Shown here: positions 16,079 through 40,740 of the stretch, piece after piece | How the letters are laid out: the number at the start of each line of letters is the position of its first letter | How positions within the stretch are numbered: the first letter of the stretch is position 1 | Source of the DNA: an uncultured bacterium | GTDB lineage: Bacteria; Patescibacteriota; Minisyncoccia; Phycocordibacterales; GWA1-40-21 | NCBI GenBank assembly: GCA_963798465.1 | Contig: CAWCTC010000001.1 | Location: forward strand, 260,315 to 324,314 | Length of the DNA: 64,000 nucleotides | Direction of reading: 5' to 3' | Made by a program: the position numbers and the translations under genes | Notes under the pieces: model-generated | The model's input: the letters and a program-made list of their open reading frames with translations, nothing else | What the model was told of the DNA's origin: nothing | Databases searched by the model: none

Positions 16079-16086
16079 TATCGATG

Positions 16087-16194: not shown

Positions 16195-16286
16195 GCAATT
16201 ATCAGCGACGTAGAGCGAGAGAAATTAAAAGTAATCTTTTAATTTCTGAGCCGAGGAGTCTGATATAAGAGCGAAGCTGCTTCTAT
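16195..16286 (+). repeat. Structured ~85-nt repeat, copy A (family with 46327-46424 and 46446-46512)
   Basis: ..ATCAG-CGACGTAGAGCGAGAG-AAATTAAAAG-TAAT-CTTTTAATTT-CTGAGCCGAGGAG-TCTGAT.. This copy overlaps the last ~20 codons and the stop of recG. Confidence 0.7.
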
Positions 16287-18448
16287 TCAAAATGTATTTC
16301 GTCCATTTTTCTATGCAGAAAGTTTTTCGTTTATCAAGAGGGAATTTTGAAAGAGTTTCATCTTGGGACAAAAAATATTCTGCTTCAGCTCGTGCGGCTT
16401 CCACCATTTTTAAATTTCTTATTGCTTCCATGCCGATATCAGAGATTCCCCATTGTTTGTTTCCGGAAAGTTCGCCTGGTCCACGAAGTTTCAAATCAAA
16501 TTCGGCAAGTTCAAAACCATTTGAAGAATTTTTAAATGCTTTGAGTCTAAGCAAAGTTTTTTCAGTTTTTGTTTCCGCAAAAACATAACAATATGCTTGA
16601 TGATTGCTTCTGATGACGCGTCCGCGAAGCTGGTGAAGCTGGGCGAGTCCAAATCTTTCCGCTCCTTCAATAATTATCACAGTTGCATTCGGAACATTTA
16701 CTCCGACTTCGACGACAGAAGTTGCGACAAGAATTTTTATTTTTCCGGATTTGAAATCATTCATCACTTTTTCTTTTTCGCCTTGCAGCATTTTGGAATG
16801 AAGAATTCCAATTTCATAATTTTGAAAAACATCTCGTTTCAATCTTTCAGCTTCTTCTTTTACGGACTTTGCAATAACAGCTTGTTCTTTTGCCGGATCG
16901 GGTTCATTTATTCTTGGACAAATCACATAAGCTTGTCTGCCTTCTGCCAGTAAATTTTTTATTTTTGTATAAGTATTTTCTCGTTCGTCCGGCAAAACAA
17001 TTTCGGTGATAATCGGTTTTCTTCCGAGAGGCATCTGATCAAGCAAAGTCAAATCCAAATCTCCGTAAATAGTTAGTGCTAAAGTGCGGGGAATCGGCGT
17101 TGCAGTCATCGAAAGAAGATGCGGATTCAACCCTTCTTTTCTTGTTATTTTTTGTCTTTGTGCAGTTCCGAAGCGATGCTGTTCATCGATTATAGAATAT
17201 GCCAAATGCTTGAATTTTACGGATTTTTGAATAAGCGCATGCGTTCCGATAAGAATCGGAATTTCGCCATTTGCAACCCATTTCAAAAGCTGAGTCTTGG
17301 AAATTTTGGTCCATTCTTTTGGATTTGTTTTTGAAGGAAATTTTCTGCATTCTTTTCCGGTGATGAGTCCAACATTTATTTTTAAGTAAGTAAAATATTC
17401 TATGAAAGATTCAAAATGCTGTTTTGCCAGAATTTCAGTCGGTGCCATATAAGCGACTTGAAGATTTCCGAAATTTTGTCCTTTTGGTTTTGAAGTGATG
17501 ATTGCAAATGCAGTTGCTGCAGCGACTGCTGTTTTTCCTGAACCGACATCTCCTTCAAGCAGACGCGACATTGCATGTCCGCTTCTGAAATCGATCATTA
17601 TTTGTTCAATGGCTTTATTTTGCGCTTCTGTCGGTGCGAATGGAAATCTTTCAACGAACTGCTCGATATCTTTCGGAGTTTTTTCAATAACATAAGAAGG
17701 ATTTTTATTCCAAAGAATTTTATCTCTTTTTTTCTGCAAGTTGAATGAAAAAAACTTCCTCAAATGCGAATCTTTTTCTTGCAGAAATCGCATCGCTCTT
17801 GTTTTTGCGGAGTGTGAATCCAGACAAGCGCGGTTTTTAAAGTCGGAAGATTGTAGGTTGTCCAGAATATATTCCGGAATCGGATCTTTTATATTGTCCA
17901 AAATTCCTGAACTGAAAATCTTTTTGTATTGCATGATAAAACCAATTTGAAGTGATGCCTTGGCTTTCCGGATAAACAGGATAAAGAGAATGAGCCTCGC
18001 CGTCTTCTCCAAAAAGAGAATCGCCGACGCCGATCGGTAGCTTTACGATCGTTTCTATTTTCGGATTTGATAAATAAAGTTCGCCGCGTCTGTCAGAAAC
18101 TTTTCCGTCGGCTCGGACAAAAGCATCTTCATGAATCATTTTTGCAATGTACGGCTGATGGAACCAAACAGCTTTTATTTTTCCGGATTCATCTTCAATC
18201 CAAGCTTCGGACATCGGAATTTTGCTTTTGAAACCTTTGCTTGTTTTAAGTTTCGTGATTTTTCCAAAGATTACGGCGCTTTCTCCTTCAATCAAGCTGC
18301 CGATATTTTTTTTCTCGGAAGTGTCGCCATATCTGACGGGGAAATGATAAAGCAAATCGCCCACGGTTTTAATACCGAGCTTTTTCAAGGCTATTTTCTG
18401 CGATTCCTGCAGGCGGAAATTGTTTTCAATCTGTGAATTCAAATCCAT
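16225..18448 (-). pseudogene. recG: ATP-dependent DNA helicase RecG, split by one extra base in an A5 run (possibly an artefact)
   Basis: ORF 17837-18448 encodes the wedge domain. ORF 16225-18012 encodes the helicase core (GDVGSGKT, IIDEQHRFG, QLHQLRGRVIR). The frames meet at CAAAAAG on the coding strand (T-run 17921-17925). With A4 the reading is ..WFYHAIQKIFSSGILDN.. Confidence 0.92.
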
Positions 18449-19380: not shown

Positions 19381-20782
19381 TTATTTTAATTTTTTGATTA
19401 AAACGTTGAATTTTTCTCCGCGATCGAATTCATTCTTGAATTTTTCAAAGCTTTTTGAGGAAGGGGAGAAAAGCAGTGTCGATTTGCCTTTCAGTTTTTT
19501 TATTTTTTCAAAAGCGGATACGACGCACTCTTCTAAAGTATTTTTGACGGATATTTTTGAAATGTCAGCCAATTTTTCCAATTCGATAAGCATTTTTTTT
19601 GTCGCACTTCCCTCAAACATAATTATATTTTTAAGCGGAATATAATTTACTAAAGTTTTTGCCCAATCTTCGTATTCAAGTCCAGCATCGGTTCCGCCGG
19701 CAATCAGAATGCAATTTTCAGAGCCAAAACGCTCGATTGCTGCCATTCCACCTTCCGGTGAAGTTGCTGAAGTATCGTTTATTATCTTCGTATTTTTGAA
19801 ATTTGCCACAATTTCTTGTCTGTATTTTACTTGTGGAATTGTTTTAATTCTTTTTTGAATGTCAGAAAATTTTTCTTCGGAAAGATAAGCGGCTAAAACA
19901 GATGAAAGTAAATTTGCGACGTTATGCTTGCCCCAGATTTCATTGAAATCTTTTATTTCTAGAATTTTTTCTGGTGTTTTTGTTTTGGTCTGCAAGAACA
20001 TACTTTTATCTTGATAATAAATTCCATTAATATTTTTCGGCAGTTTGTTCATCGAAAAAAACCAGATTTCAGCTTTTGGATTTTGTTTCAGAAAAAAATT
20101 TGTCCATTCGTTATCAAAATTTAAAATTAATTTATTATTTTTTGTCTGATTCTTAAAAATATTTGCTTTTGCCAGTGCATAATTTTCCAAAGTACCGTGG
20201 CGATTCAGATGATCGACAAAAATATTCGTTATGAGCAGAAATGCATGGAATGGAATCGAATCTTTCAAGTTGAAAAGAGGGAATTTCGTTCACGACAATC
20301 TTGTATTTTTTGTTTTTTGTTTTCGGAAGTATTTCGAGTGGCGGTTGAGTCGAGGAATTTCCTGCGATTATCGATTTTCCCCCAATCAGATGTGCAGTCC
20401 AATTTGTCACGGTAGTTTTTCCTCTCGTTCCTGTGATTGCGATTATCGGTTTTGGACAATTTTCGTAAAATATTCTGGCTTCATTATAAATCGGCTTGCC
20501 GAGTTTTTCTGCAAGCAAAACAAGCGGATTATTTTTGGGAACAGCTTGATTGATAACAATAATATCTTCATCCGAAACAATTTTTTCGTCAGAATTTTCA
20601 AAAAAATAATTTACTTTGCCTTTTATTTTTTTTATTGAATCTTTAAAAAATTCTTTCGGTTTTGAATCTGTAATTGAAAGTTTTGCACCCTGTTTCAGAA
20701 GCCAATTTGCCGTGGTGACTCCGCCTCCAAGAATTCCAAGTCCGATAAGCAAAACTTTTTTATTTTTAAATTCGCTTTTCAT
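19381..20782 (-). pseudogene. murD: UDP-N-acetylmuramoylalanine--D-glutamate ligase MurD, split by one extra base (possibly an artefact)
   Basis: The N-terminal ORF (20153-20782) has KKVLLIGLGILGGG and AITGTRGKTT. The C-terminal ORF (19381-20268) has ITNIFVDHLNRHG and the C-terminal domain. The frames meet in GATTCGATTCCATTCCATG (coding strand, about 20235-20255). Confidence 0.88.
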
Positions 20783-21937: not shown

Positions 21938-21961
21938 ATTTATAAACTAATATAATAAAAT

Positions 21962-21994
21962 AAAAAGGGTTTTCGCTTTGCGAAAACCCTTTTT
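21962..21994. terminator. Hairpin AAAAGGGTTTTCGC-TTT-GCGAAAACCCTTTT
   Basis: Perfect 14-bp stem with A/T runs, 25 nt after the stop. Confidence 0.75.
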
Positions 21995-23516
21995 ATTTTG
22001 CGAAAAAGCAAGTAATTACAACGTTTTTTTTATTTTTTTAAAAAACGTATATTTTTCCTATCTAAAACGGAAAAAATCATTGCGTTGTCATAATTATTGT
22101 TCTATAATTGGGTTTGTAAAAGAGTTGCGCAGTTTAGAAGTACAGCTGGTTTTTTTGTTAGGGAATATATAGTCCGTTTAAAATGTACGCATACAATTTT
22201 TTAAAAAAACAGTCTTTTTAGGGCTATGTTCAGTAGCGCTGTTATTTTGCTTTTCGGTGACGAATGTTTTTGCTGCAGGAGTTCCTACTATTTTGAGTTT
22301 TCAAGGAAGGCTTACGGATTCTTCCGGCAATCTTTTAGGAGGTTCAGGAACAAATTATTATTTTAAATTTTCCATCTGGAATAACTCGACTATCGGTTTA
22401 GGGTCACAGCTTTGGCCTGCAGTCGCTCCGTCAGTTTTTTCTACGGCAGTACGACAAGGAGTTTTTAATGTAAATATCGGAGACACTTCAGCGGGATATC
22501 CCGATGTCTTGGATTATAATTTCAATACGAGTGTTCCAGTTTATTTGCAGATAGAAGTTTCTTCCGATGGAATAAATTTCCAAACTCTCGGTCCGAGACA
22601 AGAAATCACGGCATCCGCATTCGCCCAATTATCCGGAGCTGTGAGTGGAACGGGACAATCTTCTTTCGGAACAACGACTCCGATAAATAATTCCGTTGTC
22701 AGTATAGTTTCAACTTCAACAAATTCCACTGCGCTTACGATAAGAGGCTTGGTCGGACAAATTGCAAATCTTTTTCAGGTTCAAAATTCTTCGGGTGCGA
22801 ATGTATTTTCAATCGATAATAACGGTTCAATAATTTCGAGTGGAACAATTGTTGCAACAAATATTTCCGGGACTTCAACTGGAATAAATACCGGCGACGA
22901 ATCTTCATCATCAATCAGAACAAAACTCGGAGCCGCATCATCGACAAATGACGGATATCTTTCAGCAGGAGATTGGACGAATTTCAACAGCAAAGTTTCA
23001 GGAACAGGGAATACTGGCGAACTTTCATATTGGACTGACTCAAACACCTTGGCAAGTATCGGCCCTGGAATTGACGGAATGTTTTTGAGAGCTTCATCAA
23101 CTTCTCCAACAGGTTTTGATTGGACTTTAGCAAGCAGCAGTGGAGGTTCTGGCGTTTGGGGAGCAATTACAGGAACTCTTTCAAATCAAACAGATTTACA
23201 AAATGCCCTTGATGCAAAACTTTCCACGACTTCAGCGGCGGCAATTTATTTGAGTCAAATTTCAGCATCATCGACTTATGTTTCTTTTGATTATGCAACA
23301 AATACTTTTGCGACAATTTCTTCTCTCGGCTCATATGCCACAACCGGAGCACTTTCAAATTATTACTTGGCTTCAAATCCATCAAACTACATTTCAAATA
23401 TTTCCGGACAGAATCTTGCAACCGCCGACAATTCAATTTCCGGCTTCATCACCGCAACTGCTCTCATTCCATATCTTTCCACCACATCCGCCGCTTCAAC
23501 ATATCTTCCTCTTTCA

Positions 23517-25406
23517 GCTTCAACATCTCTTGCATATATTCCTCTCGCATCAAGTTCAATCTTCCTTTCAACAACTTCCGCATCAGCCCTATATGTTTCC
23601 ACTTCATCTCTTGCAAGCACTCTGCTCGGATATCTTTCAACAACATCGGCATCAGCAAATTACGTTTCAACTTCATCTCTGACTTCAACTCTCGCTTCAT
23701 ATCTGACTACTGCATCTTCAACTGCGACATATCTCACGATCCTATCCGCCGCTTCAACATATCTTCCTCTTTCAGCTTCAACATCTCTTGCATATATTCC
23801 ATTTGCATCTTCATCTTTGTATTTATTGAATAGCGCTTCAACATCTCTTGCATATATTCCTCTCGCATCAAGTTCAATCTTCCTTTCAACAACTTCCGCA
23901 TCAGCCCTATATGTTTCCACTTCATCTCTTGCAAGCACTCTGCTCGGATATCTTTCAACAACATCGGCATCAGCAAATTACGTTTCAACTTCATCTCTGA
24001 CTTCAACTCTCGCTTCATATCTGACTACTGCATCTTCAACTGCGACATATCTCACGATCCTATCCGCCGCTTCAACATATCTTCCTCTTTCAGCTTCAAC
24101 ATCTCTTGCATATATTCCATTTGCATCTTCATCTTTGTATTTATTGAATAGCGCTTCAACATCTCTTGCATATATTCCTCTCGCATCAAGTTCAATCTTC
24201 CTTTCAACAACTTCCGCATCAGCCCTATATGTTTCCACTTCATCTCTTGCAAGCACTCTGCTCGGATATCTTTCAACAACATCGGCATCAGCAAATTACG
24301 TTTCAACTTCATCTCTGACTTCAACTCTCGCTTCATATCTGACTACTGCATCTTCAACTGCGACATATCTCACGATCCTATCCGCCGCTTCAACATATCT
24401 TCCTCTTTCAGCTTCAACATCTCTTGCATATATTCCATTTGCATCTTCATCTTTGTATTTATTGAATAGCGCTTCAACATCTCTTGCATATATTCCTCTC
24501 GCATCAAGTTCAATCTTCCTTTCAACAACTTCCGCATCAGCCCTATATGTTTCCACTTCATCTCTTGCAAGCACTCTGCTCGGATATCTTTCAACAACAT
24601 CGGCATCAGCAAATTACGTTTCAACTTCATCTCTGACTTCAACTCTCGCTTCATATCTGACTACTGCATCTTCAACTGCGACATATCTCACGATCCTATC
24701 CGCCGCTTCAACATATCTTCCTCTTTCAGCTTCAACATCTCTTGCATATATTCCATTTGCATCTTCATCTTTGTATTTATTGAATAGCGCTTCAACATCT
24801 CTTGCATATATTCCTCTCGCATCAAGTTCAATCTTCCTTTCAACAACTTCCGCATCAGCCCTATATGTTTCCACTTCATCTCTTGCAAGCACTCTGCTCG
24901 GATATCTTTCAACAACATCGGCATCAGCAAATTACGTTTCAACTTCATCTCTGACTTCAACTCTCGCTTCATATCTGACTACTGCATCTTCAACTGCGAC
25001 ATATCTCACGATCCTATCCGCCGCTTCAACATATCTTCCTCTTTCAGCTTCAACATCTCTTGCATATATTCCATTTGCATCTTCATCTTTGTATTTATTG
25101 AATAGCGCTTCAACATCTCTTGCATATATTCCTCTCGCATCAAGTTCAATCTTCCTTTCAACAACTTCCGCATCAGCCCTATATGTTTCCACTTCATCTC
25201 TTGCAAGCACTCTGCTCGGATATCTTTCAACAACATCGGCATCAGCAAATTACGTTTCAACTTCATCTCTGACTTCAACTCTCGCTTCATATCTGACTAC
25301 TGCATCTTCAACTGCGACATATCTCACGATCCTATCCGCCGCTTCAACATATCTTCCTCTTTCAGCTTCAACATCTCTTGCATATATTCCATTTGCATCT
25401 TCATCT
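23517..25406 (+). repeat. Tandem repeat, 318-bp unit x ~5.9, apparently 100% identical, in-frame (106 aa)
   Basis: Unit starts fall at 23517, 23835, 24153, 24471, 24789 and 25107. The identical antisense shadow ORFs spaced 318 nt apart in the ORF track confirm perfect identity. Confidence 0.95.
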
Positions 25407-25965
25407 CTCTACTATCTCAACTCAAACCCAGCAGGCTATATCACTTCCACTTCAACTGCATTCATTCCATTTGCATCAAGTTCTCTTTATCTTCTAAATT
25501 CAGCCAGCACAAGTTTGGCATATATTCCGATAGCATCTTCTTCATTATTTGCAACTTCGGGAACACTTTTGAGCTATATGACTTACAGTTATGCTTCTTC
25601 CACCTATGCAAGCACGACTTATGTCAATAATACATTTTTGAAATTATCTGCTTCAACATCTCTTGCTTATATTCCATTTGCATCTTCATCTCTCTACTAT
25701 CTCAACTCAAACCCAGCAGGCTATATCACTTCCACTTCAACTGCATTCATTCCATTTGCATCAAGTTCTCTTTATCTTCTAAATTCAGCCAGCACAAGTT
25801 TGGCATATATTCCGATAGCATCTTCTTCATTATTTGCAACTTCGGGAACACTTTTGAGCTATATGACTTACAGTTATGCTTCTTCCACCTATGCAAGCAC
25901 GACTTATGTCAATAATACATTTTTGAAATTATCTGCTTCAACATCTCTTGCTTATATTCCATCGG
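25366..25965 (+). repeat. Tandem repeat, 285-bp unit x ~2 (95 aa) inside the giant gene
   Basis: TCATCTCTCTACTATCTCAACTCAAACCC recurs at 25401 and 25686. The protein segment ASTSLAYIPFASSSLYYLNSNPAGYITS...NNTFLKLS is duplicated. Confidence 0.9.
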
Positions 25966-28469
25966 CCAGCTCGTCTTTGTATCTTTTAGTTTCTGCTAGC
26001 ACTTCATTGCCTTATATTCCTTTCGCTTCTTCAAGTTTGTATGCAACAGGAACAAACTACTGGTCTGCAAATGGAAATAATATTTATAATAATAATATAG
26101 GAACTGTTGGCATCGGAACTACAACGGCATCTGATTTGCTAGGCATTGAAGGTGGTGGCTTAGGTATTTATGCTCCTAGCACTAATGCAGCAAAATTTGC
26201 TGGAAATATAGAACCTGGCGATGGCGACCTTCTTGTAACTACCGGCAGGTCTTTAACCATTATGTCAAATGTCAATAGTTCAATCACTCCTGTTTTTGAA
26301 GCCAGTGTTACAGGCGGTGTATCTATTGGTTCGTATGTGAATAGTGTAAATATGTATTCTGTGCCAGCAAATAGTCTTATCCTTCCTGGAAGCATCGGTA
26401 TAGGAACTTCAACTCCTTCGCAAGCTCTGACAGTTATTGGAAATATTGCTTTGTCAGGAGCGATTTTTGACAGCACGAACGCTTCGGGAACTGCGGGAAT
26501 GGTTTTATCTAGCACTGGAACATCTACTTTGTGGATTCCTGCGCCATCAGGTTCATCCCAGTGGACAACAAATGGAACTTCAATTTATTATAATGGGGGG
26601 AAATGTCGGAATAGGAACAACAACACCCATAGCAGCTTTGGCTATTGCTAGCGCAACTGATACCCCATATGTTCTTGCAGTATACGGAGGCAATGGAAGT
26701 TCAACAGCAGGAAGTTCAGTTATTATGAATACTGGCAACGGCGGTCAAGTCGGTTTAGTCGGAGCACCCGGTGGAAATTTCTCATTCACAACCGGAATCG
26801 GAGGTTCTGCCGTCTCAGGCGAATCATCTGGTGCAAATGGAGGTGATTTTCTAGTTACAACAGCTGCTGGAGGTAATTCAACAGGACATCAAGCAGGTGG
26901 ACGAGGAGGCAACATGACAATTTTACTTGGCAATGGAGGTACTGGTTATGGCGGAGGAATCGGAGGATCATACTCAGTTACTGCAGGCAATGGTAATACT
27001 GGAACTTCCAATGGAGCTGGTGGAAGTATAAATCTTATCGCAGGAAATTCTCCTGGCGGAATTTCTGGCAATATAGTTTTGACTCCAGGCAATAATGGAA
27101 CAAATGCAACCGGCAGCGTAATAATTTCAACTCTGGCAGGACTCGGCAGTGTCGTCACACTCGGAGCAAATGGAGCTCTTACCGCTATTTCTTCAACCTC
27201 ACTATCAAGCTTATATGTAAGTCCAAGCCATGTGGATAATCTTGCGTATAGATATAACACTATTCCTTTGAATCAATCCGTCACAAATATTTCTATTATA
27301 TCTACCACTACTGTTGCACAGGTTGCAAACTACGGAGCATGGGACGGCCAACATTTATGGGTATCACAATTTGCTGCACATTCAATTACAGAACTGAATG
27401 AAAATGGAGTTGTCATGGCCACTTATACTTTTGCAAGCAGTATTGAACCAATTCAGTTGGCATACGATGGAAGATATATTTGGGTAGCCAGCGCGGATAC
27501 ATATGGAAATTTGATAAAGTTCGATCCAACAACAGGAGCTTCATCTACGACTCTTATGAATCCAGGAGGCACAGGCTCTGGCGGTATCCAAGGAATTCTT
27601 TGGGATGGAAGCAAATTGTGGATAGGTCTTGCAGCTTTGAATGATGTTTTGAGATTTAATACTATAACTGGATCAGTTGAGGCAACATCCACAGGAGATA
27701 CAAACGTAAACGGTTTGGCCATGATGGATATTCCTGAAAACGGAGGAGTGACAAGATATATTTTTGCGGCTTGTTCTAACTTCATAGCAAAAATAAAGGG
27801 AAGCACCATGGTCTCATCACTTATTGGTACTCCATCAAACACATACCGTATAGCGACAGACGGAGATTTTCTTTATGGAGCTTCTTATTTGGCAAGTTCA
27901 ACAGATGCAACTGTAGAAAAATATGATGCAAGAAGCGGTACAAAAATTGTAAGTTGGAATTCCGGAACTCTTCTGAACACAATTGCATTTGATGGAAGAT
28001 ATATCTGGGTATCGGGAGATGATCAAACCACAACCGTTCATGACAGAACTTCAGGAGCTATTGTTGCATCTATTCCAAATAGCGGAAAATCCGATCTTAT
28101 TTTTGATGGTACATATATGTGGAGTATTAGCAGTGCGGGCTTTGTGAGGAAATTAGGTATCGGTGAACAAATGGGCAATTTAAAAGTTGCACAGGGCATG
28201 AGTTTGATGGATGAGAACAATAATGTAGGACTCCTTCTCTTGGCAACTTCTACCGGTAGTAGCTATATGATGAGTAATTTTGGAATTGGGACAACTTCGC
28301 CGACCGCACCTCTCACTGTTACAAATTCGACAACGACTGGCGTGCTAGTTTCCATTTCTTCTCCGAATGCTCTGGCCACAACAGGCAGTTTGCTTTCTTT
28401 GGCGGCAGATGGCGCGACGACTCCAACAGGTGTTATGACTTTGAGCGCGAATGGTTTAACTTCTGGAAA

Positions 28470-29215
28470 TGGTCTTTCTATATCCACAACAAATACTGCT
28501 CAAACAGGTTCATCGCTTCAAGTCACTACCGGTTCAACTGGTCAGCCAACAAACGGTCTCGTCTTCTTCAACTTTGCCGGAGCTAGAACAACTGCAGGAG
28601 CAGCATTCAAGATTACAGATGTTTCAACCACAGTTGCAACAACAACTCAAATTACTGCAGATGCTCTTACATCCGGCGCGGCTCTCAGCATTTCAGCTGC
28701 TGGATTAACTACTGGAACAGGTCTTGGAATATTTACTGCAGCTGCTACTCAGACAGGTCCTTCGCTTTTTGTGAAAACAGCTGGAACAAGCGCACCAACA
28801 AACGGTCTCGTCTTCTTCAACTTTGCCGGAGCTAGAACAACTGCAGGAGCAGCATTCCAGATTACAGATGTTTCAACCACAGTTGCAACAACAACTCAAA
28901 TTACTGCAGATGCTCTTACATCCGGCGCGGCTCTCAGCATTTCAGCTGCTGGATTAACTACTGGAACAGGTCTTGGAATATTTACTGCAGCTGCTACTCA
29001 GACAGGACCTTCACTGCTCGTCAGCACAGCTGGAACAAGCGCACCAACAAACGGTCTCGTCTTCTTCAACTTTGCCGGAGCTAGAACAACTGCAGGAGCA
29101 GCATTCCAGATTACAGATGTTTCAACCACAGTTGCAACAACAACTCAAATTACTGCAAATGCTCTTACATCGCGGCTCTCAGCATTTCAGCTGCTGGATT
29201 AACTACTGGAACAGG
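28470..29215 (+). repeat. Tandem repeat, 249-bp unit x ~3 (83 aa) inside the giant gene
   Basis: CCAACAAACGGTCTCGTCTTCTTCAACTTTGCC occurs at 28546, 28795 and 29044. The last copy carries a 4-nt deletion and 1-nt insertions relative to the others. Confidence 0.9.
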
Positions 29216-30969
29216 TCTTTGGAATATTTACTGCAGCTGCTACTCAGACAGGCTGCTGGTACCGGATTACAAGTTACGGATAGCTCAACGGGTCTTGCTA
29301 CTGCTCTCGGTGTTACTGCTTCCTCTAACCTTACAGGTTTCGGAGAAGTTATAACCATGCTTGGAAGCAGGTCAGCAGGTTCTGCACTTTTGATAAATGC
29401 AAGTTCAAGCAATGCATCTTCAACAACTGCTTCAGCTGGTATTACAATTGAATTGCCTGCAGTAGGAAATGGCGGTCTGCGTTATATTCGTTTTGCAAAT
29501 GCTGCCGGTACTGAAATCGGAGCAATCGTAAACCCTGCTTCTGCCGGTACTTCAGTGGCTTTATATACAACTTCAGATAAAAGATTAAAAACAAATGTGG
29601 AGGAAACACACTATGATCTTGCCGACCTTATGAAAATACAAGCTGTTGATTTCAATTGGATTTCTGACAACTCTCCCGATACAGGTTTTATTGCTCAGGA
29701 TCTTTACAATATTTATCCGAATGCAGTTATGAAGGGAGATAATGGAACGGATCCTTATATTCCCGGAGTGACAAATACTTGGTCTGTAGATTACAGCAAA
29801 CTCACTCCGCTTCTTGTTAAAAGCGTTCAAGATTTGAATAATAATTTCATTGCATCGACGACTGCGCTTGAATCAAGTTCATCGGCTGATGAAAATAATA
29901 TTTCAATGCTTGAAGCCAGCTCATCTGCCGACGAATTAGGAATATCAATTCTTGAAGCAAGTTCGTCCATTGATGAAACAAATATAAATCAGATAAATAA
30001 TATTCTTTCTCAATTCTTCGATGCTTCATCATCCGCTCTTTCGATAAATAATATCGATGCGGGAGTTCAGATTGTAACTCCGAAAATTACGGCGAACGGT
30101 TTGACAGTCGATACTATTTCTTCAATCAATGATGCGATTAATTTTGAAAACGATGCGATTTTCTTCGGCAGACCATACTTCAATAGCGATACCGCGGGAT
30201 TTGCGGTCATAAAAGCCGGACAGCAATCCGTCGATGTGACATTTGATAATCCTTATCTTGATGATCCTATAGTCAGCGCGACCATCACGATGGATAATTC
30301 CGGAAATTCTGTCGATGATACCGCCGCAGTGGAAGATATATTCAATAGTAATATCCAATATTTAGTTGCGGACAAAACAACGGCAGGATTTACGATTGTC
30401 TTGAACAAGCCGGCTGTCCGCGATACGACATTCAGCTGGATTGCGCTTGCAGTTAAAAATGCAAAAACATTTGGCACTCCTTCGGAAGATGTGACACAGC
30501 AAGATGAATCGACATCTACATCATCGCAAGATGTTTCAACTTCATCCGATGATTCATCATCAAACAATGCAACTTCAACTGCAACGACGACTGATGATAG
30601 TTCAGTTGCAAGCAGCACTCCGCAAGATACGACTCCGCCAGTGATTACAATCAATGGTGACAATCCAGTTTCAATAAATGTCGGCGATACTTACACAGAT
30701 GCCGGAGCAGTCGCTACGGATAATGTTGATGGAACAGATACTGTTACAGCATCGGGAACAGTTGATACGACAACTGCCGGCACATACACAATTACTTATT
30801 CGGCAACTGATACAGCAGAAAATACTGCGACTGAAACCAGAATTGTAAATGTCGCAGCAGTTTCAGAAGGAGATGATGCAACAAGCACAGCAACGACGAC
30901 TTCAGATTAGTAAATAGCTTTGTAAGGTTTTTCTGTTTTTATAAATATGTTAGAATAATTCGATAAAAA

Positions 30970-31980
30970 ATGAAAGAAATTGAGTCTGCAAAAAAAGTTC
31001 CATTATTTTGGAAAAAGTATCATATTGTCTGGATTTCCGGCACTTTTTTTGCAGGTGCAATTGTCGTATTTATTTTGAACTATTTTATTAATTTGCCATC
31101 CATAGCTACAAGTGCCGATGTTAGAATAAATGATACCAGCTACACATATATCAATCCGCTTCTTGAATGTGATAGCGGAAGTTCAATTTCTCAAGGACTT
31201 AATTCATTCAAAAACAGTATGCAAAGCTACGTTGATGAACTTACTGAAAGTAAAAAGGCTGATTTCATTTCAATATATTTTAGAGACATGAATAATGGAC
31301 CATGGTTCGGTATAAATGAGAATGCAGAATTTTATCCCGCATCACTTCTCAAAGTGCCGATTGCCATGGCTTATTTTGAACAATTTGAATCAAATCCCGG
31401 ATTGCTGTCTCAGAAAATCACATTTACTAAAAGCATCAATCAAGATGTCGAATATTTCAAATCATCTACGATAAAACTCGGACAAACATATTCAATAAAA
31501 GATCTTATCAGCGCGATGCTAGTCAATTCTGATAATGATGCGCTTGATCTTCTTGTGACGAATTTTGCCGCGAATAATGTCGATACTCAGGATACATTTA
31601 AATATCTGAATGTTAACATTTCATCAGACGGCATGATCACTGTGCAACAGTATGCGACATTTTTCAGAATATTATTCAACTCATCATATCTTGATTATGA
31701 TGATTCGGAAAAATTACTTTCAATGCTCGCAGAATCGACTTTCACTCAAGGATTGCGCGCAGGCGTGCCAGCAAATATTCCGGTGGCGCATAAATTCGGA
31801 GAGAGATGGTCATACACAGACCCGGAAAAAGAACTTCATGATTGTGGAATCATATATTATCCAAATCACCCGTATCTTCTTTGCGTCATGACGAAGGGAA
31901 CAAATCTTGATGACATGGCTGGTGCGATTTCCGACATATCGAAATTTGTTTATAATGAAGTAAATAAACAGCTTAATTAA
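30970..31980 (+). CDS. Membrane-anchored serine hydrolase, class A beta-lactamase/PBP-like
   Basis: 336 aa with an N-terminal TM segment. SxxK (PASLLKV), SDN (VNSDNDALD) and a KTG-like HKFGE occur in the canonical order. Confidence 0.75.
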   Translation: MKEIESAKKVPLFWKKYHIVWISGTFFAGAIVVFILNYFINLPSIATSADVRINDTSYTYINPLLECDSGSSISQGLNSFKNSMQSYVDELTESKKADFISIYFRDMNNGPWFGINENAEFYPASLLKVPIAMAYFEQFESNPGLLSQKITFTKSINQDVEYFKSSTIKLGQTYSIKDLISAMLVNSDNDALDLLVTNFAANNVDTQDTFKYLNVNISSDGMITVQQYATFFRILFNSSYLDYDDSEKLLSMLAESTFTQGLRAGVPANIPVAHKFGERWSYTDPEKELHDCGIIYYPNHPYLLCVMTKGTNLDDMAGAISDISKFVYNEVNKQLN

Positions 31981-32078
31981 AAACGAAGTTTGTGCAGGCT
32001 GTTAGTTATTCCTTTCATAAGTAAGCCTTATAATATATAATATAAGGCAATAATTATCAGGTTGTTAATGTATAAAAA

Positions 32079-32468
32079 ATGGACACGAAAAATAAAAAAA
32101 TATTTTGGAAAATTTTAATTCCCTGGATGCTTTTTGTCTTAGCTATTTTAGCTGATGGATATTTTGTATATAAAATATATGTAGTAAAGGCGGGAAATTC
32201 TCAAAACTCTGCTCAAACAGAAGCGACAAATATAATAAATGAAGTTGGCAAGCTCATTGTCCTTCCAACCGGCGAAACTCCGACAATAGCAACAGTTACG
32301 GATCTTTCGCAGCTGAAAGATCAGCCGTTTTTTACAAATGCAAAAGTCGGCGACGATGTTCTCATCTATTCTCAGGCGCAAAAAGCGATTTTATACGATC
32401 CGTCTTTGAATAAAATCGTGGAGATTGCTCCTATCAGCGGCAACAGCACTTCATCACCATCGTTATAG
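32079..32468 (+). CDS. Hypothetical membrane-anchored protein
   Basis: 129 aa with a single N-terminal TM segment. No motif recognised. Confidence 0.5.
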   Translation: MDTKNKKIFWKILIPWMLFVLAILADGYFVYKIYVVKAGNSQNSAQTEATNIINEVGKLIVLPTGETPTIATVTDLSQLKDQPFFTNAKVGDDVLIYSQAQKAILYDPSLNKIVEIAPISGNSTSSPSL

Positions 32469-32499
32469 TTGCAATAGATAATCATAGTTTTTAATATAA

Positions 32500-33894
32500 A
32501 TGAATAAGTTGCGACAAAAAATAAAATCGATTATTTATCTTATAAGTTTTACTGCAATTTTTTTTGCGCTTTTTCATTTTGCATCTTTCGCTCAGGAATA
32601 CAGCTCATCAAATTATAAAATTTCAAATCCGGTGATTACTTCCGGCGGAGGATATTCTTCTTCCGCAAATTTCGGATTGCAAAGTTCAATCGGGCAGATA
32701 GGAATCGGAACAAGTTCTTCCGCAAGTTTCGGATTGAATGCCGGATTTTTATATTTTCCTTATGTAACGACTCCAGCGATTTCTGCGACTGCGGGAAACG
32801 GCCAGGTTTCTCTTTCTTGGACGGCTGCGAACGGAATTCTTGGTTGGACTGCGAGCGGATATGATATAGGTTATTCGACAGTTTCCGGCGGTCCATATAC
32901 TTTCGGTTCATCTCTTGGAAATGTTTTGTCTGCAGTTCAAGGGGGTTTGAATAATGGCACGACATATTATTTTGTCGTCAGAGTTGAAGACGCTTTTCAA
33001 AATATTATTGCAATTTCTTCGCAAGTTTCAGCAACTCCGTCAGCTCCATCAATTTGCACCGATCATTCCGCAACAAATTATGGCGGAGCTCTTCCTTGCA
33101 CATATCCATCTGGCGGTGGCGGAGGAGGAGGCGGTGGTGGCGGAAGTTCTGCACCGCAAACCGGCGTAATTTTTTCAGGAAGAGCATATCCGCTAAGCAA
33201 TGTCAGCGTGCTTGAAGACGGTCAGCTCGCGGTCACGACAATCGCCGATCCGAATGCAAATTTTAATATTTCTCTTTTGGGACTTTCAGCGGGAAATTAT
33301 ACATTTTCAGTTTACGGTGAAGATTCCGAAGGAAGGCGTTCTTCTCTTTTTTCATTTCCAGTTTTTATAACATACGGCGTTGTCACAAATATCGGCGGAA
33401 TTTTCATAGCGCCGACAATTGCCGTCGATAAAAGCGAAGTCAAGAAAGGAGACAATATAGCGATTTTCGGACAGTCTGCATCTCAAGCAAATATAATAAT
33501 TTCCGTTCATTCCGCTCAGGAAGTTTTTGCCACGACTTCATCGGATAAAAATGGAATTTATCTTTACAATTTTGATACATCGCAGATAGATTATGGAGAG
33601 CACAATACTCAATCAAAAGCCGCCGTCGATGACTCAATATCCGATTACAGCGATTCAGTTGCATTCAATGTTGGAACGGAAAATATAACTGCACCGGTGT
33701 CAAAACAATGTCCGATGAAAGGGGATTTGAACGGCGATTGCAAAGTGGATCTTGTGGATTTTTCTATCGCTGCGTATTGGTATAAACAGCCGCTCAGCGA
33801 TGCGTTTAAAAAAATAGAAAAAGCGGAACTCAATGGCGATGGAAAAGTCGATCTTGTCGACTTCAGCATCATGGCATACTACTGGACAGGATAA
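32500..33894 (+). CDS. Secreted dockerin-containing protein (FN3-like + poly-Gly linker + Ig-like + C-terminal type I dockerin)
   Basis: 464 aa with a signal peptide. The C-terminus has two EF-hand-like segments, GDLNGDCKVDLVDFSIAAYWY and AELNGDGKVDLVDFSIMAYYW. A G11 linker is encoded at about 33.12-33.15 kb. Confidence 0.75.
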   Translation: MNKLRQKIKSIIYLISFTAIFFALFHFASFAQEYSSSNYKISNPVITSGGGYSSSANFGLQSSIGQIGIGTSSSASFGLNAGFLYFPYVTTPAISATAGNGQVSLSWTAANGILGWTASGYDIGYSTVSGGPYTFGSSLGNVLSAVQGGLNNGTTYYFVVRVEDAFQNIIAISSQVSATPSAPSICTDHSATNYGGALPCTYPSGGGGGGGGGGGSSAPQTGVIFSGRAYPLSNVSVLEDGQLAVTTIADPNANFNISLLGLSAGNYTFSVYGEDSEGRRSSLFSFPVFITYGVVTNIGGIFIAPTIAVDKSEVKKGDNIAIFGQSASQANIIISVHSAQEVFATTSSDKNGIYLYNFDTSQIDYGEHNTQSKAAVDDSISDYSDSVAFNVGTENITAPVSKQCPMKGDLNGDCKVDLVDFSIAAYWYKQPLSDAFKKIEKAELNGDGKVDLVDFSIMAYYWTG

Positions 33895-33915
33895 ATTAAT
33901 ATATTGAAATATTAA

Positions 33916-35370
33916 ATGAAAATTAAAAATAAAAAGGGATCAAATAATAGATTAATCCAAAAAATATTTGGGAAATTTGTTAAGCTCTCATTTTTTCTGA
34001 TATTATTGTTATCATTTTTTTTACCTTTCGCTTCAAGAGCTCAGCAATCTGTTTCTGTTGATGCATCAACACTGATTCCAAAATCAATACTTTTTCTTTC
34101 TCCGAGTGCAGCGACTATTTTAGAAGGATCTACAATAGACATACCTGTTTTTATAAATACTGAAGGCAATAGCATAAATACTGTGCACTTGAGTGTAAAT
34201 TTCGATCCGACGAAAATGATAATCACGAGTCCATCGAATGCCAATTCAATCATAGGCATCTATGTCGATCCGCCGACATTTTCAAATACTGAAGGTACTA
34301 TGGAATTGTCAGGTGTCATACCAAACGGAATAACCACAGGGAGTGGCTTGATCACGACAATAACTTTCAAAGCCATTTCTAGTGGGCAAGCTAGTGTAGC
34401 AATCTCTGATTCGTCTAAAGTTTTAGCAAACGATGGACAAGGGACTGAAGTAAAAACTCAATTTGGCACAGGAGTTTATACCATTATTCCTCAATCTCCC
34501 GGCGGCCCGACTGTTTTTTCAGAAACGCATCCATTTCAAGACCAGTGGTATAACAATAACAGCCCTCAAGTGGCCTGGAATAAAGATCCTGGGGTTACGG
34601 ATTTTAGCTATAATCTTGACGATAAGCCGTTCACTGTCCCAGACAATGATATGGATAGCACAAATACGTCCATGGCTTATGAAAATTTATCAGATGGAAT
34701 ATGGTATTTCCATATTAAAGAAAAAAAAGAGGGAGTCTGGGGATTGACTACCAATTTTACCATTCGCATAGATACGTCGTCTCCAGCCGCATTTAAACCG
34801 GAGGTTTCTTTTTTGACATCTTCAAGTTCAAGACAGGTTCTCGTGTCGTTCTTTACCACTGATTCTTTGTCGGGTCTTGATTATTATGAAGTCGGAATTG
34901 TACCAAAAAGCGGAACGAATGAATCGCCAGCTTTTGTTCAGACATCCAGTCCTTATCAATTTTCACTTCAATCCTCTGAAGACGTAAGAGTAATCGTAAG
35001 AGCATTTGACAGAGCGGGAAATTCAATAGATGAATCGGTTGATGTCAATTCTCCGTCGGATATAGTCACTTTTTTTGAGCAGAATTTTATTATAATAATT
35101 TTATTGCTCATTTTGCTAATTGATTTTCTTTTTGGACACAAAATTATTCCGCATATCGGAAGAATTGTTAAAGCAGTTGAGAAAGAGGAAAAAGAAGAAA
35201 AACTTTCAGAAAATAAAAAAGAAAGCTATGATATAGCTGAAACGAAGATAAATTCAAGCGGTCCATCGAAAATGAGCAAGGTGGAGTTTGATTCAGAAAC
35301 TCAAAAACCAGAGATGTCGATTAAAAAAGATGAAATAATAAATACGCAAAATCCAACAGAAATAAAATGA
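33916..35370 (+). CDS. Cohesin-domain surface protein, C-terminal TM anchor
   Basis: 484 aa. After the signal peptide comes a cohesin-like module (ATILEGSTIDIPVFINTEGNSINTVHLSVNFDP...ITTITFKAISSGQASVAIS..VLANDGQGTEV). A shared WYN..P...W...GIWYFHIK...IRIDTSSP module follows, then a TM segment and a Lys/Glu-rich tail. Confidence 0.7.
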   Translation: MKIKNKKGSNNRLIQKIFGKFVKLSFFLILLLSFFLPFASRAQQSVSVDASTLIPKSILFLSPSAATILEGSTIDIPVFINTEGNSINTVHLSVNFDPTKMIITSPSNANSIIGIYVDPPTFSNTEGTMELSGVIPNGITTGSGLITTITFKAISSGQASVAISDSSKVLANDGQGTEVKTQFGTGVYTIIPQSPGGPTVFSETHPFQDQWYNNNSPQVAWNKDPGVTDFSYNLDDKPFTVPDNDMDSTNTSMAYENLSDGIWYFHIKEKKEGVWGLTTNFTIRIDTSSPAAFKPEVSFLTSSSSRQVLVSFFTTDSLSGLDYYEVGIVPKSGTNESPAFVQTSSPYQFSLQSSEDVRVIVRAFDRAGNSIDESVDVNSPSDIVTFFEQNFIIIILLLILLIDFLFGHKIIPHIGRIVKAVEKEEKEEKLSENKKESYDIAETKINSSGPSKMSKVEFDSETQKPEMSIKKDEIINTQNPTEIK

Positions 35371-36263: not shown

Positions 36264-36273
36264 AGGATGATTG

Positions 36274-36324
36274 TGCGACGTGATTTTGTAACTGCGTCGC
36301 ATTATAAGGACGGTTATGCGACGT
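36274..36324. repeat. REP-like triple-arm element TGCGACG..GCGTCGCA..TGCGACG
   Basis: TGCGACG-tgattttgtaact-GCGTCGCA-ttataaggacggtta-TGCGACG. Related to 14417-14446 on the opposite strand. Confidence 0.6.
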
Positions 36325-36347
36325 AACTTCGCTAAGTTAAAAAATTA

Positions 36348-38841: not shown

Positions 38842-38928
38842 ATTTTTTGTTGAATGAGTTATTTTATGTGTTATAATAACACGGAAAGAACGCAGAGCGA
38901 ATTAATTGCGCGCAATTTTTTATATATC

Positions 38929-40044: not shown

Positions 40045-40090
40045 TCAACATTGTATTGTTTTTATTTTTTGATGTATAATATACGAAGAA

Positions 40091-40738: not shown

Positions 40739-40740
40739 TT

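What the first reader, a model, noticed from the sequence alone, without database searches (positions are those of the whole stretch)
22183..30910. Giant tail-fibre-like surface protein with an internal, not C-terminal, S74-type self-cleaving chaperone motif
Read through the frame breaks, this is a protein of about 2,880 aa. In order it has a signal-like N-terminus, a phage-fibre-like motif (GDESSSSIRTKLGAASSTNDGYLSAGDWTNFNSK), hundreds of residues of S/T/A-rich Y-x-S repeats, a Gly-rich segment, a 6-blade-like FDGxYIWV propeller, 83-aa repeats, and then TSDKRLKTNVEE...DFNWISD.

In phage tail spikes and fibres the SD(K/R)RxK-initiated intramolecular chaperone (peptidase S74) is the extreme C-terminus and cleaves itself off. 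Here about 445 further residues follow, including an Ig-like PPVITINGDNPV...DNVDG domain. Cleavage would therefore release a large second fragment.

The gene sits next to cohesin/dockerin and pilus genes. That fits a host-attachment apparatus of an episymbiont, but this is inference.
Basis: partly seen in the sequence, partly recalled or inferred. Interest (0 to 1): 0.55.

Follow-up and report, generated by a model that had tools for sequence, protein, structure and literature searches.

The report
Self-cleaving giant surface fibre of Patescibacteria
This is one ~2,900-residue cell-surface fibre gene of an ultrasmall (Patescibacteria) bacterium in which a phage-type self-cleaving folding domain sits 444 residues before the end, followed by a lectin-like and an Ig-like domain, and this layout proves common across the phylum.

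Summary
The three ORFs plus ATG 22183 read as one gene of about 2,908 aa. Homologues in single ORFs span every frame break, and four housekeeping genes in the window (FtsH, RecG, a Mur ligase, an amidase) are split in the same way, so the breaks look like assembly indels.

Peptidase_S74 is real: Pfam gives 47 bits against a cut-off of 22, and a profile hits solved phage-fibre and MYRF chaperone domains. The Ser2464/Lys2469 dyad is intact, and 444 residues follow the Ser.

- About 135 of those residues are the chaperone domain itself.
- Next comes a well-conserved, confidently modelled β-sandwich ("X"), H-type-lectin-like by fold. It is followed by an S/T linker and a PF16403 Ig-like domain.
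- X is a phylum-wide module found near the C-terminus of Patescibacteria fibres. It follows a Peptidase_G2-like (phi29 gp12-type) module in 93 of 158 proteins, S74 in 15, and an unknown third module in at least 13. A syntenic relative has G2-like where this gene has S74.

Cleavage is inferred, not shown. An internal S74 domain has a known precedent in eukaryotic MYRF. I rate this a new variant of a known kind, of moderate interest.

The parts
22183..30910 (+). Whole gene for a ~2,908-aa fibre protein, read through three frame-break sites
   Evidence: Single-ORF homologues span all breaks.
22183..22274 (+). Sec-type signal peptide (aa 1-31, MYAYNFFKKTVFLGLCSVALLFCFSVTNVFA|A). Contains frame break 1 in a T6A7 run at ~22197-22209.
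   Evidence: This is the only strongly hydrophobic stretch; two windows near aa 1642-1644 barely reach the Kyte-Doolittle 1.6 threshold. P0122 aligns from Met1. Sequence.
22275..22886 (+). Conserved N-terminal module (aa 32-235), with a beta-sandwich at aa ~31-150
   Evidence: 46-71% identical across 104 aligned Patescibacteria proteins, including stand-alone 330-395-aa proteins. AF2 pLDDT is ~96. No specific PDB fold relative.
22893..23324 (+).
   Evidence: phrog_25379 'tail protein', E=7e-7. The same motif recurs in the second fibre gene at 62048->64000.
23502..26051 (+). S/L/T/A/Y-rich shaft repeats: 318 nt x5.9 at 23517-25406 (100% identical) and 285 nt x2.1 at 25365-25962
   Evidence: composition.
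26052..27252 (+). '(V/I)GIGTTTP'-type and Gly-rich segment (20% Gly). Frame break 2 lies in a G6 run at ~26596-26601.
   Evidence: P0110 and P0114 align across the break.
27280..28167 (+). Propeller-like region with six DGxx[ILMF]W-type motifs; an 85-aa gap suggests a seventh blade
   Evidence: The only other support is a weak Pfam beta-propeller hit. Not verified structurally.
28546..29252 (+). 83-aa (249-nt) repeats x2.9. The last copy holds frame break 3: three indels within 29170-29252, and 28 aa missing relative to P0121/L003.
29573..29983 (+). Peptidase S74 intramolecular chaperone domain. Predicted scissile bond is Ser2464|Asp2465 (between nt 29575 and 29576); Lys2469 is at 29588-29590.
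   Evidence: Pfam 47.3 bits. Ser and Lys are invariant in 15 S74-X proteins. The profile hits 8jov, 6f45, 7dc3 (MYRF) and 3gud. Coordinates.
30023..30478 (+). Domain X (aa 2614-2765): a conserved beta-sandwich with an H-type-lectin-like fold. Motifs: FFGRPYFNSDTAGFA ... GFTIVLNKPA ... FSWIALAVKNAK.
   Evidence: AF2 pLDDT >90 for aa ~2669-2759. Foldseek hits HPA 2ccv (E=2.4e-3), 4q56, 3wmp and 2vm9, and phage 'H-type lectin domain' proteins. Found in 158 proteins and 190 genome stretches.
30488..30634 (+). S/T/D-rich low-complexity linker
   Evidence: P/T/S-rich tails follow X in every homologue inspected.
30644..30853 (+). Bacterial surface Ig-like domain (PF16403, formerly DUF5011)
   Evidence: Pfam E=1.6e-19. 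PDB 2kpn E=2.7e-6. Foldseek.

Best explanation
This is the gene for a secreted, probably trimeric, cell-surface fibre of a Patescibacteria (CPR) bacterium. It is built like a phage tail fibre but encoded in the chromosome.

Shown:
- A Sec-type signal peptide.
- An N-terminal beta-sandwich module that is highly conserved across the phylum.
- A long variable shaft: S/T/Y-rich tandem repeats, a Gly-rich segment, a propeller-like insert and 83-aa repeats.
- A bona fide Peptidase_S74 intramolecular chaperone domain with an intact Ser2464/Lys2469 dyad.
- After it, a conserved H-type-lectin-like beta-sandwich (X), an S/T-rich linker and an Ig-like domain.

Inferred: as in phage endosialidases and tail fibres and in MYRF, three S74 domains associate, nucleate folding of the preceding fibre, and then cut the chain between Ser2464 and Asp2465. 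This would yield a ~2,430-aa mature fibre and a ~444-aa C-terminal fragment (chaperone + X + linker + Ig).

Both ends of the protein family are conserved while the middle varies. X follows interchangeable upstream modules: G2-like, S74 or a third type. I therefore think X plus the tail serves the cell's own assembly or tethering, for example by holding three C-termini together at the envelope while the fibre trimerises. I do not think it is the host-specific tip. The variable shaft and propeller are the likelier host-contact parts. This last step is speculation.
For: One gene:
- Homologues in a single ORF bridge each break.
- FtsH, RecG, a Mur ligase and an amidase in the same window are split too.

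S74:
- Pfam 47.3 bits against a cut-off of 22.
- PHROG tail-fibre families, E down to 5e-22.
- A profile of 15 S74-X proteins hits solved chaperone domains: 8jov 2.7e-16, 6f45 5.9e-12, MYRF 7dc3 1.7e-8, GA-1 3gud.
- Ser and Lys(+5) are invariant across those 15 proteins at 22-87% identity.

Domain X:
- pLDDT >90.
- H-type lectin folds among Foldseek hits.
- Found near the C-terminus of proteins up to 5,152 aa.
- Architecture counts: G2-like-X 93, S74-X 15, third module >=13.
- In 80 genome loci: 66 with a G2-like hit plus one more seen by eye (L029), and 5 S74-X (L080 carries both arrangements).
- The syntenic locus L002 has G2-like-X-Ig at the same place.
- The G2-like profile aligns to the phi29 gp12 autochaperone from its first residue, D692. 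Pfam Peptidase_G2 hits 2 of 8 members.

Cellular, not phage:
- Housekeeping and pilus neighbours.
- Among phage genomes, 118 records match only the S74 part and none matches X.

Conserved N-terminal module.
Against: - No direct evidence of cleavage or trimerisation.
- The AF2 monomer model of the S74 part is poor (pLDDT 40-60).
- Break 3 is not a simple homopolymer error: three indels plus a 28-aa gap relative to close relatives. This copy could be damaged.
- The H-type lectin assignment rests on modest Foldseek scores (E ~2e-3, TM ~0.56). There is no Pfam H_lectin hit.
- The G2-like assignment for relatives is weak (E ~4e-4 to 6e-4).
- X also follows a third, unidentified module, so 'X follows self-cleaving chaperones' is not general.
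- The proposed assembly or tethering role of X has no test behind it.
Confidence: 0.6

Rival explanations
1. S74 acts here only as a trimerisation or folding module. It does not cut, or the cut fragment stays bound. The lectin-like X and Ig domains then form the distal receptor-binding tip of the fibre.
For: - X has the fold of trimeric carbohydrate-binding H-type lectins, and resembles phage proteins annotated 'H-type lectin domain' and 'tail fibre'.
- Lectin and Ig domains are typical adhesin tips.
- Patescibacteria epibionts need lectin-like and dockerin proteins for growth on hosts (PMC10633639).
Against: - The Ser/Lys dyad is invariant in all 15 S74-X proteins, which suggests that catalysis is retained.
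- X is 35-55% identical in 23 aligned homologues, from genomes labelled as many different Patescibacteria lineages. That is unusual for a host-specificity tip.
- X sits behind interchangeable upstream modules.
Confidence: 0.2
2. MYRF-like release switch. X + P/T/S-rich tail + Ig is the cell-wall anchor, and S74 cleavage frees the trimerised fibre from it, so that the fibre is shed or handed to another anchor.
For: - MYRF uses the same domain to release an N-terminal trimer from a C-terminal anchor (PMC3742440); the S74 profile hits MYRF 7dc3.
- P/T/S-rich tails after X resemble wall-spanning regions.
- A Bacteroidota homologue has S74 followed by a T9SS sorting domain (P0087).
Against: - There is no hydrophobic segment after S74: maximum Kyte-Doolittle value is 0.77.
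- No sortase-type (LPXTG) sorting signal was looked for.
- The highly conserved N-terminal module is the more obvious cell-proximal dock.
- X also exists as a stand-alone secreted protein (P0034).
Confidence: 0.12
3. In this genome the gene is a decaying pseudogene. The frame breaks are real mutations and no full-length protein is made.
For: - There are five indels in 8.7 kb.
- Those at 29170-29252 are not in long homopolymers and are accompanied by a 28-aa deletion relative to P0121/L003.
Against: - Four housekeeping genes (FtsH, RecG, a Mur ligase and an amidase) are broken in the same 64 kb. The FtsH break is also at a non-homopolymer site, so indels are a property of the assembly.
- No premature stops or decay are seen within each frame segment.
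- The last ~140 aa are identical to those of the intact orthologue in L003.
Confidence: 0.08
4. It is a prophage, tailocin or contractile-injection-system tail-fibre gene rather than a cellular surface protein.
For: - S74 and fibre motifs are phage hallmarks.
- A serine recombinase, an IS200-like transposase and defence-like genes lie at 2-11 kb.
Against: - No phage structural genes flank it. The neighbours are tRNA-Ser, a Mur ligase, RecG, a beta-lactamase-like gene, dockerin/cohesin proteins and a pilus operon.
- It has a Sec signal peptide.
- The same N-terminal module occurs as a stand-alone chromosomal gene next to Tat and RecG genes in other genomes.
- X is absent from 50,697 phage genomes.
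Confidence: 0.03

Closest known systems
C-terminal intramolecular chaperone domain (Peptidase S74) of phage endosialidases, tail fibres and neck appendages (K1F endoNF, T5/S16 long tail fibres, GA-1 gp12)
   Same: - Same domain by HMM and by profile against solved structures.
- Same S-D-x-R-x-K motif with the Ser/Lys dyad.
- It follows a long repetitive fibre.
   Different: - In phages the domain ends the protein (PHROG profile positions; 69 of 87 homologues have <=30 aa after it).
- Here about 310 further residues with two folded domains follow it.
- The protein is chromosomal and carries a signal peptide.
MYRF (myelin regulatory factor) intramolecular chaperone auto-processing domain
   Same: - The S74 domain is internal.
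- Cleavage separates an N-terminal trimer from a sizeable C-terminal fragment (PMC3742440).
- The profile hits MYRF 7dc3 at 1.7e-8.
   Different: - MYRF is eukaryotic, with an Ndt80-type DNA-binding domain upstream and a transmembrane helix downstream.
- Here there is no hydrophobic segment downstream; the context is extracellular fibre.
phi29 gp12 pre-neck appendage autochaperone (Peptidase_G2) versus GA-1 gp12 (S74)
   Same: - Relatives of this gene, including the syntenic locus L002, carry a G2-like module exactly where this gene has S74.
- From my own knowledge, the two phage appendage proteins show the same swap of chaperone types.
   Different: - The G2-like assignment is weak (E ~4e-4 to 6e-4).
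- In phi29 the module is C-terminal, whereas in Patescibacteria it is followed by X.
H-type lectins (Helix pomatia agglutinin, discoidin II C-domain, SLL-2; Pfam H_lectin)
   Same: - Domain X has a similar small beta-sandwich fold (Foldseek 2ccv, 4q56, 3wmp, 2vm9).
- It also resembles phage proteins named 'H-type lectin domain'.
- From my own knowledge, these lectins are trimeric, which would suit a three-chain fibre.
   Different: - No Pfam H_lectin hit at E<=0.1.
- Scores are modest.
- Sugar binding is untested.
'Tail fiber domain-containing proteins' of Bacteroidota and other bacteria (PF26696 + PF13884)
   Same: They are cellular proteins that carry the same S74 domain. Their N-terminal PF26696 region was not compared with this protein's N-terminal module.
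   Different: - They are short (200-600 aa) with S74 at the end.
- They lack X.
- PF26696 does not hit the N-terminus of this protein.

Membership tests
Peptidase S74 / intramolecular chaperone (PF13884) | Match to the family HMM above the curated cut-off | tested here: met
   47.3 bits against a cut-off of 22, E=2.6e-12, profile positions 1-57 of 58.
Peptidase S74 / intramolecular chaperone (PF13884) | Catalytic Ser and Lys in the S-D-x-R-x-K motif | tested here: met
   S2464-D-K-R-L-K2469. Ser and Lys are invariant in 15 S74-X proteins.
Peptidase S74 / intramolecular chaperone (PF13884) | Sequence relationship to experimentally solved chaperone domains | tested here: met
   Profile A4: 8jov 2.7e-16, 6f45 5.9e-12, 7dc3 1.7e-8, 3gud 6e-3.
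Peptidase S74 / intramolecular chaperone (PF13884) | Position at the extreme C-terminus, as in phage fibres and spikes | tested here: not met
   444 aa follow the Ser. Phage profiles end 10-30 positions after the match.
Peptidase S74 / intramolecular chaperone (PF13884) | Helical C-terminal part of the domain after the beta-rich part | tested here: inconclusive
   AF2 predicts helices at model residues 122-145 and 179-198, but with pLDDT 40-60. A monomer model cannot show the trimer.
Peptidase S74 / intramolecular chaperone (PF13884) | Trimerisation and autoproteolysis | not testable with these tools
   Needs expression with S2464A and K2469A mutants, or proteomics.
MYRF-type membrane-tethered factors | Transmembrane helix downstream of the S74 domain | tested here: not met
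   Maximum Kyte-Doolittle value (19-aa window) after aa 2465 is 0.77.
MYRF-type membrane-tethered factors | Ndt80-type DNA-binding domain upstream | tested here: not met
   No such Pfam hit in the four segments scanned; the central tandem repeats, aa ~551-1180, were not scanned.
H-type lectin (Pfam H_lectin) | Match to the family HMM | tested here: not met
   No hit at E<=0.1 in the C-terminal segment.
H-type lectin (Pfam H_lectin) | Fold similarity to solved H-type lectins | tested here: met
   2ccv E=2.4e-3, TM(target) 0.56; also 4q56, 3wmp, 2vm9. BFVD 'H-type lectin domain' proteins at E ~2e-3. The support is modest.
H-type lectin (Pfam H_lectin) | Carbohydrate (GalNAc-type) binding site and binding activity | not tested
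   Binding residues were not compared. Needs a trimer model and a glycan array.
Bacterial surface Ig-like domain (PF16403, ex-DUF5011) | Match to the family HMM above the cut-off | tested here: met
   70.2 bits against a cut-off of 27, full-length match 1-71 of 71.
Phage or tailocin tail fibre (virion component) | Encoded within a phage or tail gene cluster | tested here: not met
   Neighbours are housekeeping, dockerin/cohesin and pilus genes. The protein has a signal peptide.
Peptidase_G2 autochaperone (applies to relatives such as L002, not to this gene) | HMM or profile match and the D-x-A-E motif at the start of the module | tested here: inconclusive
   Pfam PF11962 hits 2 of 8 members, best E=6e-4. 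The profile hits phi29 gp12 3gqh/6qz9 at E 3.6e-4 to 6e-4 from residue D692. D and E are invariant in 24 sequences.

The most novel reading that the evidence does not exclude
Patescibacteria may have a phylum-wide, undescribed way of building surface fibres. A conserved N-terminal dock and a conserved C-terminal cassette (lectin-like X plus a low-complexity tail) would bracket a hypervariable shaft. Just upstream of X would sit one of several interchangeable self-cleaving phage-type chaperones (S74, G2-like, possibly a third kind). Cleavage would then be an obligatory maturation step that liberates a functional trimeric lectin complex, rather than a discarded folding aid.
Probability: 0.3. Interest if true: 0.7.

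Novelty: new variant of a known kind. Interest (0 to 1): 0.55.

Why it matters
How ultrasmall episymbiotic bacteria recognise and hold on to their hosts is largely unknown beyond type IV pili. This gene belongs to a large family of Patescibacteria fibres: 190 confirmed stretches among one-genome-per-species assemblies, and about 16,600 representative proteins matching the S74-plus-X query. The family reuses phage tail-fibre assembly chemistry inside a cellular, Sec-exported protein.

If the S74 and G2-like modules do cleave, every such fibre produces a second product, a conserved lectin-like fragment of unknown role. That gives a concrete, testable handle: a defined scissile bond, point mutants, and diagnostic peptides for metaproteomics on uncultivated organisms. 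It also extends the MYRF-type use of this domain, as an internal release device, to bacteria.

Tried and rejected
- phmmer of the C-terminal 552 aa against PDB found only the Ig-like domain. A family profile was needed to reach S74 structures.
- Pfam found nothing in the N-terminal 550 aa or in the end-of-repeats/Gly-rich segment (aa ~1180-1700), and only a sub-threshold THOC3 beta-propeller hit in the propeller/83-aa-repeat segment.
- Pfam found no Peptidase_G2 in ten full-length homologues. The G2 link appeared only with trimmed modules and profiles. A larger 24-sequence profile did not improve it.
- The AF2 monomer of the S74 part was low-confidence.
- The N-terminal beta-sandwich model is confident but has no informative structural neighbour: best Foldseek E=9e-3, generic Ig-like domains.
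- My first automatic sub-alignment for domain X was contaminated by misaligned sequences. I rebuilt it from phmmer envelopes.
- Literature searches for this architecture in Patescibacteria found nothing.
- The third pre-X module has no Pfam hit.
- Prophage origin was considered and rejected on gene context.
- Programmed frameshifting was considered and rejected, because housekeeping genes in the window are broken in the same way.

Full report

The region holds three long ORFs in successive frames: 22257-26651, 26437-29202 and 28973-30910. An ATG at 22183 is followed by a signal-peptide-like sequence.

The frame changes lie at three sites:
- a T6A7 run (~22197-22209);
- a G6 run (~26596-26601);
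- the last copy of a 249-nt tandem repeat. Compared with the preceding copy, this copy has a 4-nt deletion, a 1-nt insertion and a further shift, all within 29170-29252.

Joining the frames gives a 2,908-aa protein.

Three lines of evidence say this is one gene with assembly errors.

First, homologues in single ORFs cross every break.
- P0122 (5,152 aa) aligns from its Met1 to reconstructed residue 1 at 59-61% identity.
- P0110 and P0114 align across break 2.
- P0121 aligns across break 3. Relative to it the window lacks 28 residues.

Second, locus L003 is a short-read MAG (Patescibacteria isolate bog_1341) that is 91% identical in the C-terminal region. It carries the orthologue as one open frame of at least 1,006 aa, running through S74 to the same stop. 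Its last ~140 residues are identical to the window's.

Third, four housekeeping genes in the window are split in the same way: FtsH (12305-14276), RecG (16225-18448), a MurD-like ligase (19381-20782) and a GatA-like amidase (58713-60144). One of these breaks is at a non-homopolymer site.

**2. The S74 domain**

- Pfam Peptidase_S74 matches at E=2.6e-12 (47.3 bits against a cut-off of 22), beginning at SDKRLK.
- PHROG tail-fibre families match the same stretch at up to E=5e-22. In those phage profiles the match lies at the very end, for example positions 1442-1548 of 1567.
- A profile of 15 proteins that share the S74-plus-downstream-domain layout hits solved chaperone domains. These are a tail fibre (8jov, 2.7e-16), the phage S16 long tail fibre (6f45, 5.9e-12), MYRF (7dc3, 1.7e-8) and the GA-1 neck appendage (3gud).
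- In that alignment the Ser before Asp and the Lys five residues later are invariant at 22-87% identity.
- In the reconstruction these residues are Ser2464 (nt 29573-29575) and Lys2469. After the Ser come 444 residues.

So the motif is a genuine member of the family by sequence, with its catalytic residues, but it is not at the C-terminus.

**3. What follows S74**

About 135 of the 444 residues are the chaperone domain itself (HMM envelope to ~aa 2600).

Its motifs are FFGRPYFNSDTAGFA, GFTIVLNKPA and FSWIALAVKNAK.
- AlphaFold2 with a 121-sequence alignment models its core at pLDDT >90.
- Apart from matches to the Ig-like domain, the Foldseek hits are H-type lectins: Helix pomatia agglutinin 2ccv (E=2.4e-3, TM 0.56), 4q56, SLL-2 3wmp and discoidin II 2vm9. 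Phage and pyocin fibre tips also appear.
- In BFVD several phage proteins named 'H-type lectin domain' match.
- Pfam's H_lectin model does not hit. I therefore call X H-type-lectin-like by fold only.

After X comes a 49-aa S/T/D-rich linker and a PF16403 Ig-like domain (E=1.6e-19). No hydrophobic segment occurs after S74.

**4. The layout is a family trait**

An exhaustive HMMER search with S74+X against 1.84 billion representative proteins gave about 16,600 hits at E<=1e-3 and 147 at E<=1e-30. X consistently lies 100-250 residues from the C-terminus of large proteins of up to 5,152 aa.

I built HMMs for S74, for X and for a third recurring module, and classified the proteins:

| Module upstream of X | Proteins |
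|---|---|
| Module with DLAENY...LGVVS...ALAGRVPVKV | 93 |
| S74 | 15 |
| ~300-aa module ending ...IDYFRSWQDD, no Pfam hit | at least 13 |
| Upstream region too short, probably truncated | 32 |
| No recognised module | 5 |

The first module is probably a Peptidase_G2-type autochaperone.
- Its profile aligns to the phi29 gp12 C-terminal autochaperone starting at that fragment's first residue, D692 (3gqh, E=3.6e-4; 6qz9, 6e-4).
- Pfam Peptidase_G2 hits 2 of 8 members.
- The D and E of the D-x-A-E motif are invariant in 24 sequences.
- This support is consistent but weak.

A scan of one genome per species found 190 confirmed X-encoding stretches. Nearly all are in MAGs labelled Patescibacteria, Parcubacteria, Paceibacteria, Saccharibacteria and similar. 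Among the 80 loci fetched, 66 had a G2-like hit upstream of X, plus L029 recognised by eye. Five had S74-X; L080 carries both arrangements.

Locus L002 is syntenic with the window: a fragmented giant fibre gene is followed by the same beta-lactamase-like gene and neighbours. However, it has G2-like-X-Ig where the window has S74-X-Ig, while the X-Ig part is 68% identical. The chaperone module has therefore been swapped in front of a conserved cassette.

S74 proteins without X mostly end within 30 residues of the domain (69 of 87). Eighteen have other extensions. One recurrent type is a Cys-loop motif (LCVxDxxGxxTCITKxQLDxLL) plus a P/T-rich tail. A Bacteroidota protein has a T9SS sorting domain there instead.

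GenBank phage genomes (50,697) match only the S74 part and never X.

**5. The rest of the protein**

- Residues 32-235 form a module that is 46-71% identical across 104 aligned Patescibacteria homologues (307 hits at E<=0.001). These include stand-alone 330-395-aa proteins with a different conserved C-terminus (...NENLWVCSGGSCG...EFDEGQ).
- One such gene lies next to TatC/TatA and near RecG and FtsH. In the window, RecG and FtsH lie upstream of the giant gene.
- AF2 models aa ~31-150 as a beta-sandwich at pLDDT ~96, but Foldseek finds no informative relative.
- The middle of the protein has little or no detectable similarity even to family members that share both ends, such as P0122.
- The propeller is plausible from six regularly spaced DGxxLW-type motifs, but it is unverified.

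Both ends of the family are conserved and the shaft is variable.

**6. Mechanism**

Shown:
- signal peptide;
- conserved N-terminal module;
- repetitive shaft;
- true S74 domain with its catalytic dyad;
- conserved lectin-like domain;
- Ig-like domain;
- chromosomal context with dockerin/cohesin proteins and a full type IV pilus operon.

Inferred from the established behaviour of S74 domains in phage proteins and in MYRF (PMC3742440): trimerisation and folding proceed from the C-terminal side, followed by autocleavage at Ser2464|Asp2465. This would release a 444-aa fragment.

My reading that X and the tail serve self-assembly or tethering, rather than host recognition, rests only on two things. 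One is the conservation of X across many lineages. The other is the interchangeability of the modules in front of it. The alternative, that X is the receptor-binding tip, remains open.

**7. Novelty**

- An internal S74 is established for MYRF.
- Cellular 'tail fiber domain-containing proteins' with a terminal S74 are common in databases.
- I found no paper describing S74 or G2-type chaperones in Patescibacteria, or a conserved post-chaperone lectin-like module.
- Work on cultivated Patescibacteria does show that adhesins, lectin-like and dockerin proteins and type IV pili are needed for epibiotic growth (PMC10633639).

I rate the finding a new variant of a known kind, with moderate interest (0.55). 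The main value lies less in this one gene than in the phylum-wide architecture it exposes, and in the simple experiments that could test cleavage.

Noticed in passing
window 62048-64000 (+), runs off the end: A second fibre-type gene. It has a signal peptide (MIVPMDKRIRSHKFFNIKTTVFAVFILSIFSFAGIASA), then S/T/Y-rich repeats. This explains the negative GC skew there.
   Followed up: partly
window 12305-14276, 16225-18448 (-), 19381-20782 (-), 58713-60144: FtsH, RecG, a MurD-like ligase and a GatA-like amidase are each split into two overlapping ORFs by single frame shifts. The assembly evidently carries indel errors throughout.
   Followed up: yes
window 23517-25406: There are 5.9 copies of a 318-nt (106-aa) unit at 100% nucleotide identity. 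This is either a very recent expansion, implying length-variable fibres, or an assembly or polishing effect. The syntenic L002 gene also has long near-identical repeats.
   Followed up: no
L002 (ENA contig_45473) 1-8837; window 30970-35370: The syntenic locus in a relative carries a Peptidase_G2-like module instead of S74 in front of the conserved X-Ig cassette. The downstream beta-lactamase2-like gene and the next few genes are conserved next to the fibre gene in both.
   Followed up: partly
L034, L048, L054, L075; proteins P0027, P0180, P0206 and others: A third module of about 300 aa precedes X in at least 13 proteins. Its motifs are ...GAF(I/M)D..S...EEFN ... RIEVRS...F(W/F).D..SDGI..ECG ... 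IDYFRSWQDD. It has no Pfam match and its nature is unknown.
   Followed up: partly
P0250, P0253, P0256, P0333; loci L083/L084 8001-8990: Many Patescibacteria encode short (330-395 aa) stand-alone proteins with the same N-terminal module as the giant. They have a different, strongly conserved C-terminus (NENLWVCSGGSCG...VMYD...EFDEGQ). In L083 the gene sits next to TatC/TatA and near RecG and FtsH.
   Followed up: partly
L001 8805-9971 and 10001-10762: A 388-aa protein with the N-terminal module is followed, 30 nt later and in another frame, by a 253-aa protein consisting of X plus a P/T/S tail. The pair lies beside pilus genes (T2SSF, N_methyl). It could be a real two-gene version or a frameshift. 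P0034 is a stand-alone X protein with its own signal peptide.
   Followed up: partly
P0014, P0044, P0057, P0128, P0133-P0135, P0141, P0142, P0181, P0006: A second kind of post-S74 extension: an amphipathic stretch, then a Cys-loop motif LC(V/I)xDxxGxxTC(I/V)TKxQLDxLL, then a P/T-rich tail. P0087 (Bacteroidota-type) has S74 followed by a T9SS Por_Secre_tail domain.
   Followed up: no
window 2097-10971: A lower-GC stretch (0.30-0.35) with an IS200-like transposase, an AbiEii-like AAA_21 ATPase, a DUF4209 protein, a MerR-type regulator and a large serine recombinase. It is probably a mobile or defence island, unrelated to the fibre gene.
   Followed up: partly
window 16086-16160 (-): A tRNA-Ile gene with anticodon TAT, which is uncommon in bacteria. 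Most bacteria read AUA with a modified CAT anticodon.
   Followed up: no
window 21957-21999: A 20-bp perfect hairpin flanked by A and T runs (a bidirectional terminator-like site) separates the DUF5666 gene from the fibre gene. No terminator-like site lies between the fibre gene and the beta-lactamase-like gene at 30970.
   Followed up: yes
window 32500-38135 and 38854-49613: Dockerin-like (22.7 bits, just under the cut-off) and cohesin-domain proteins with Ig-like domains lie here. They are followed by a complete type IV pilus set: PilM, PilO, PilB with MshEN, PilT, PilC, three N-methyl pilins and a prepilin peptidase.
   Followed up: yes
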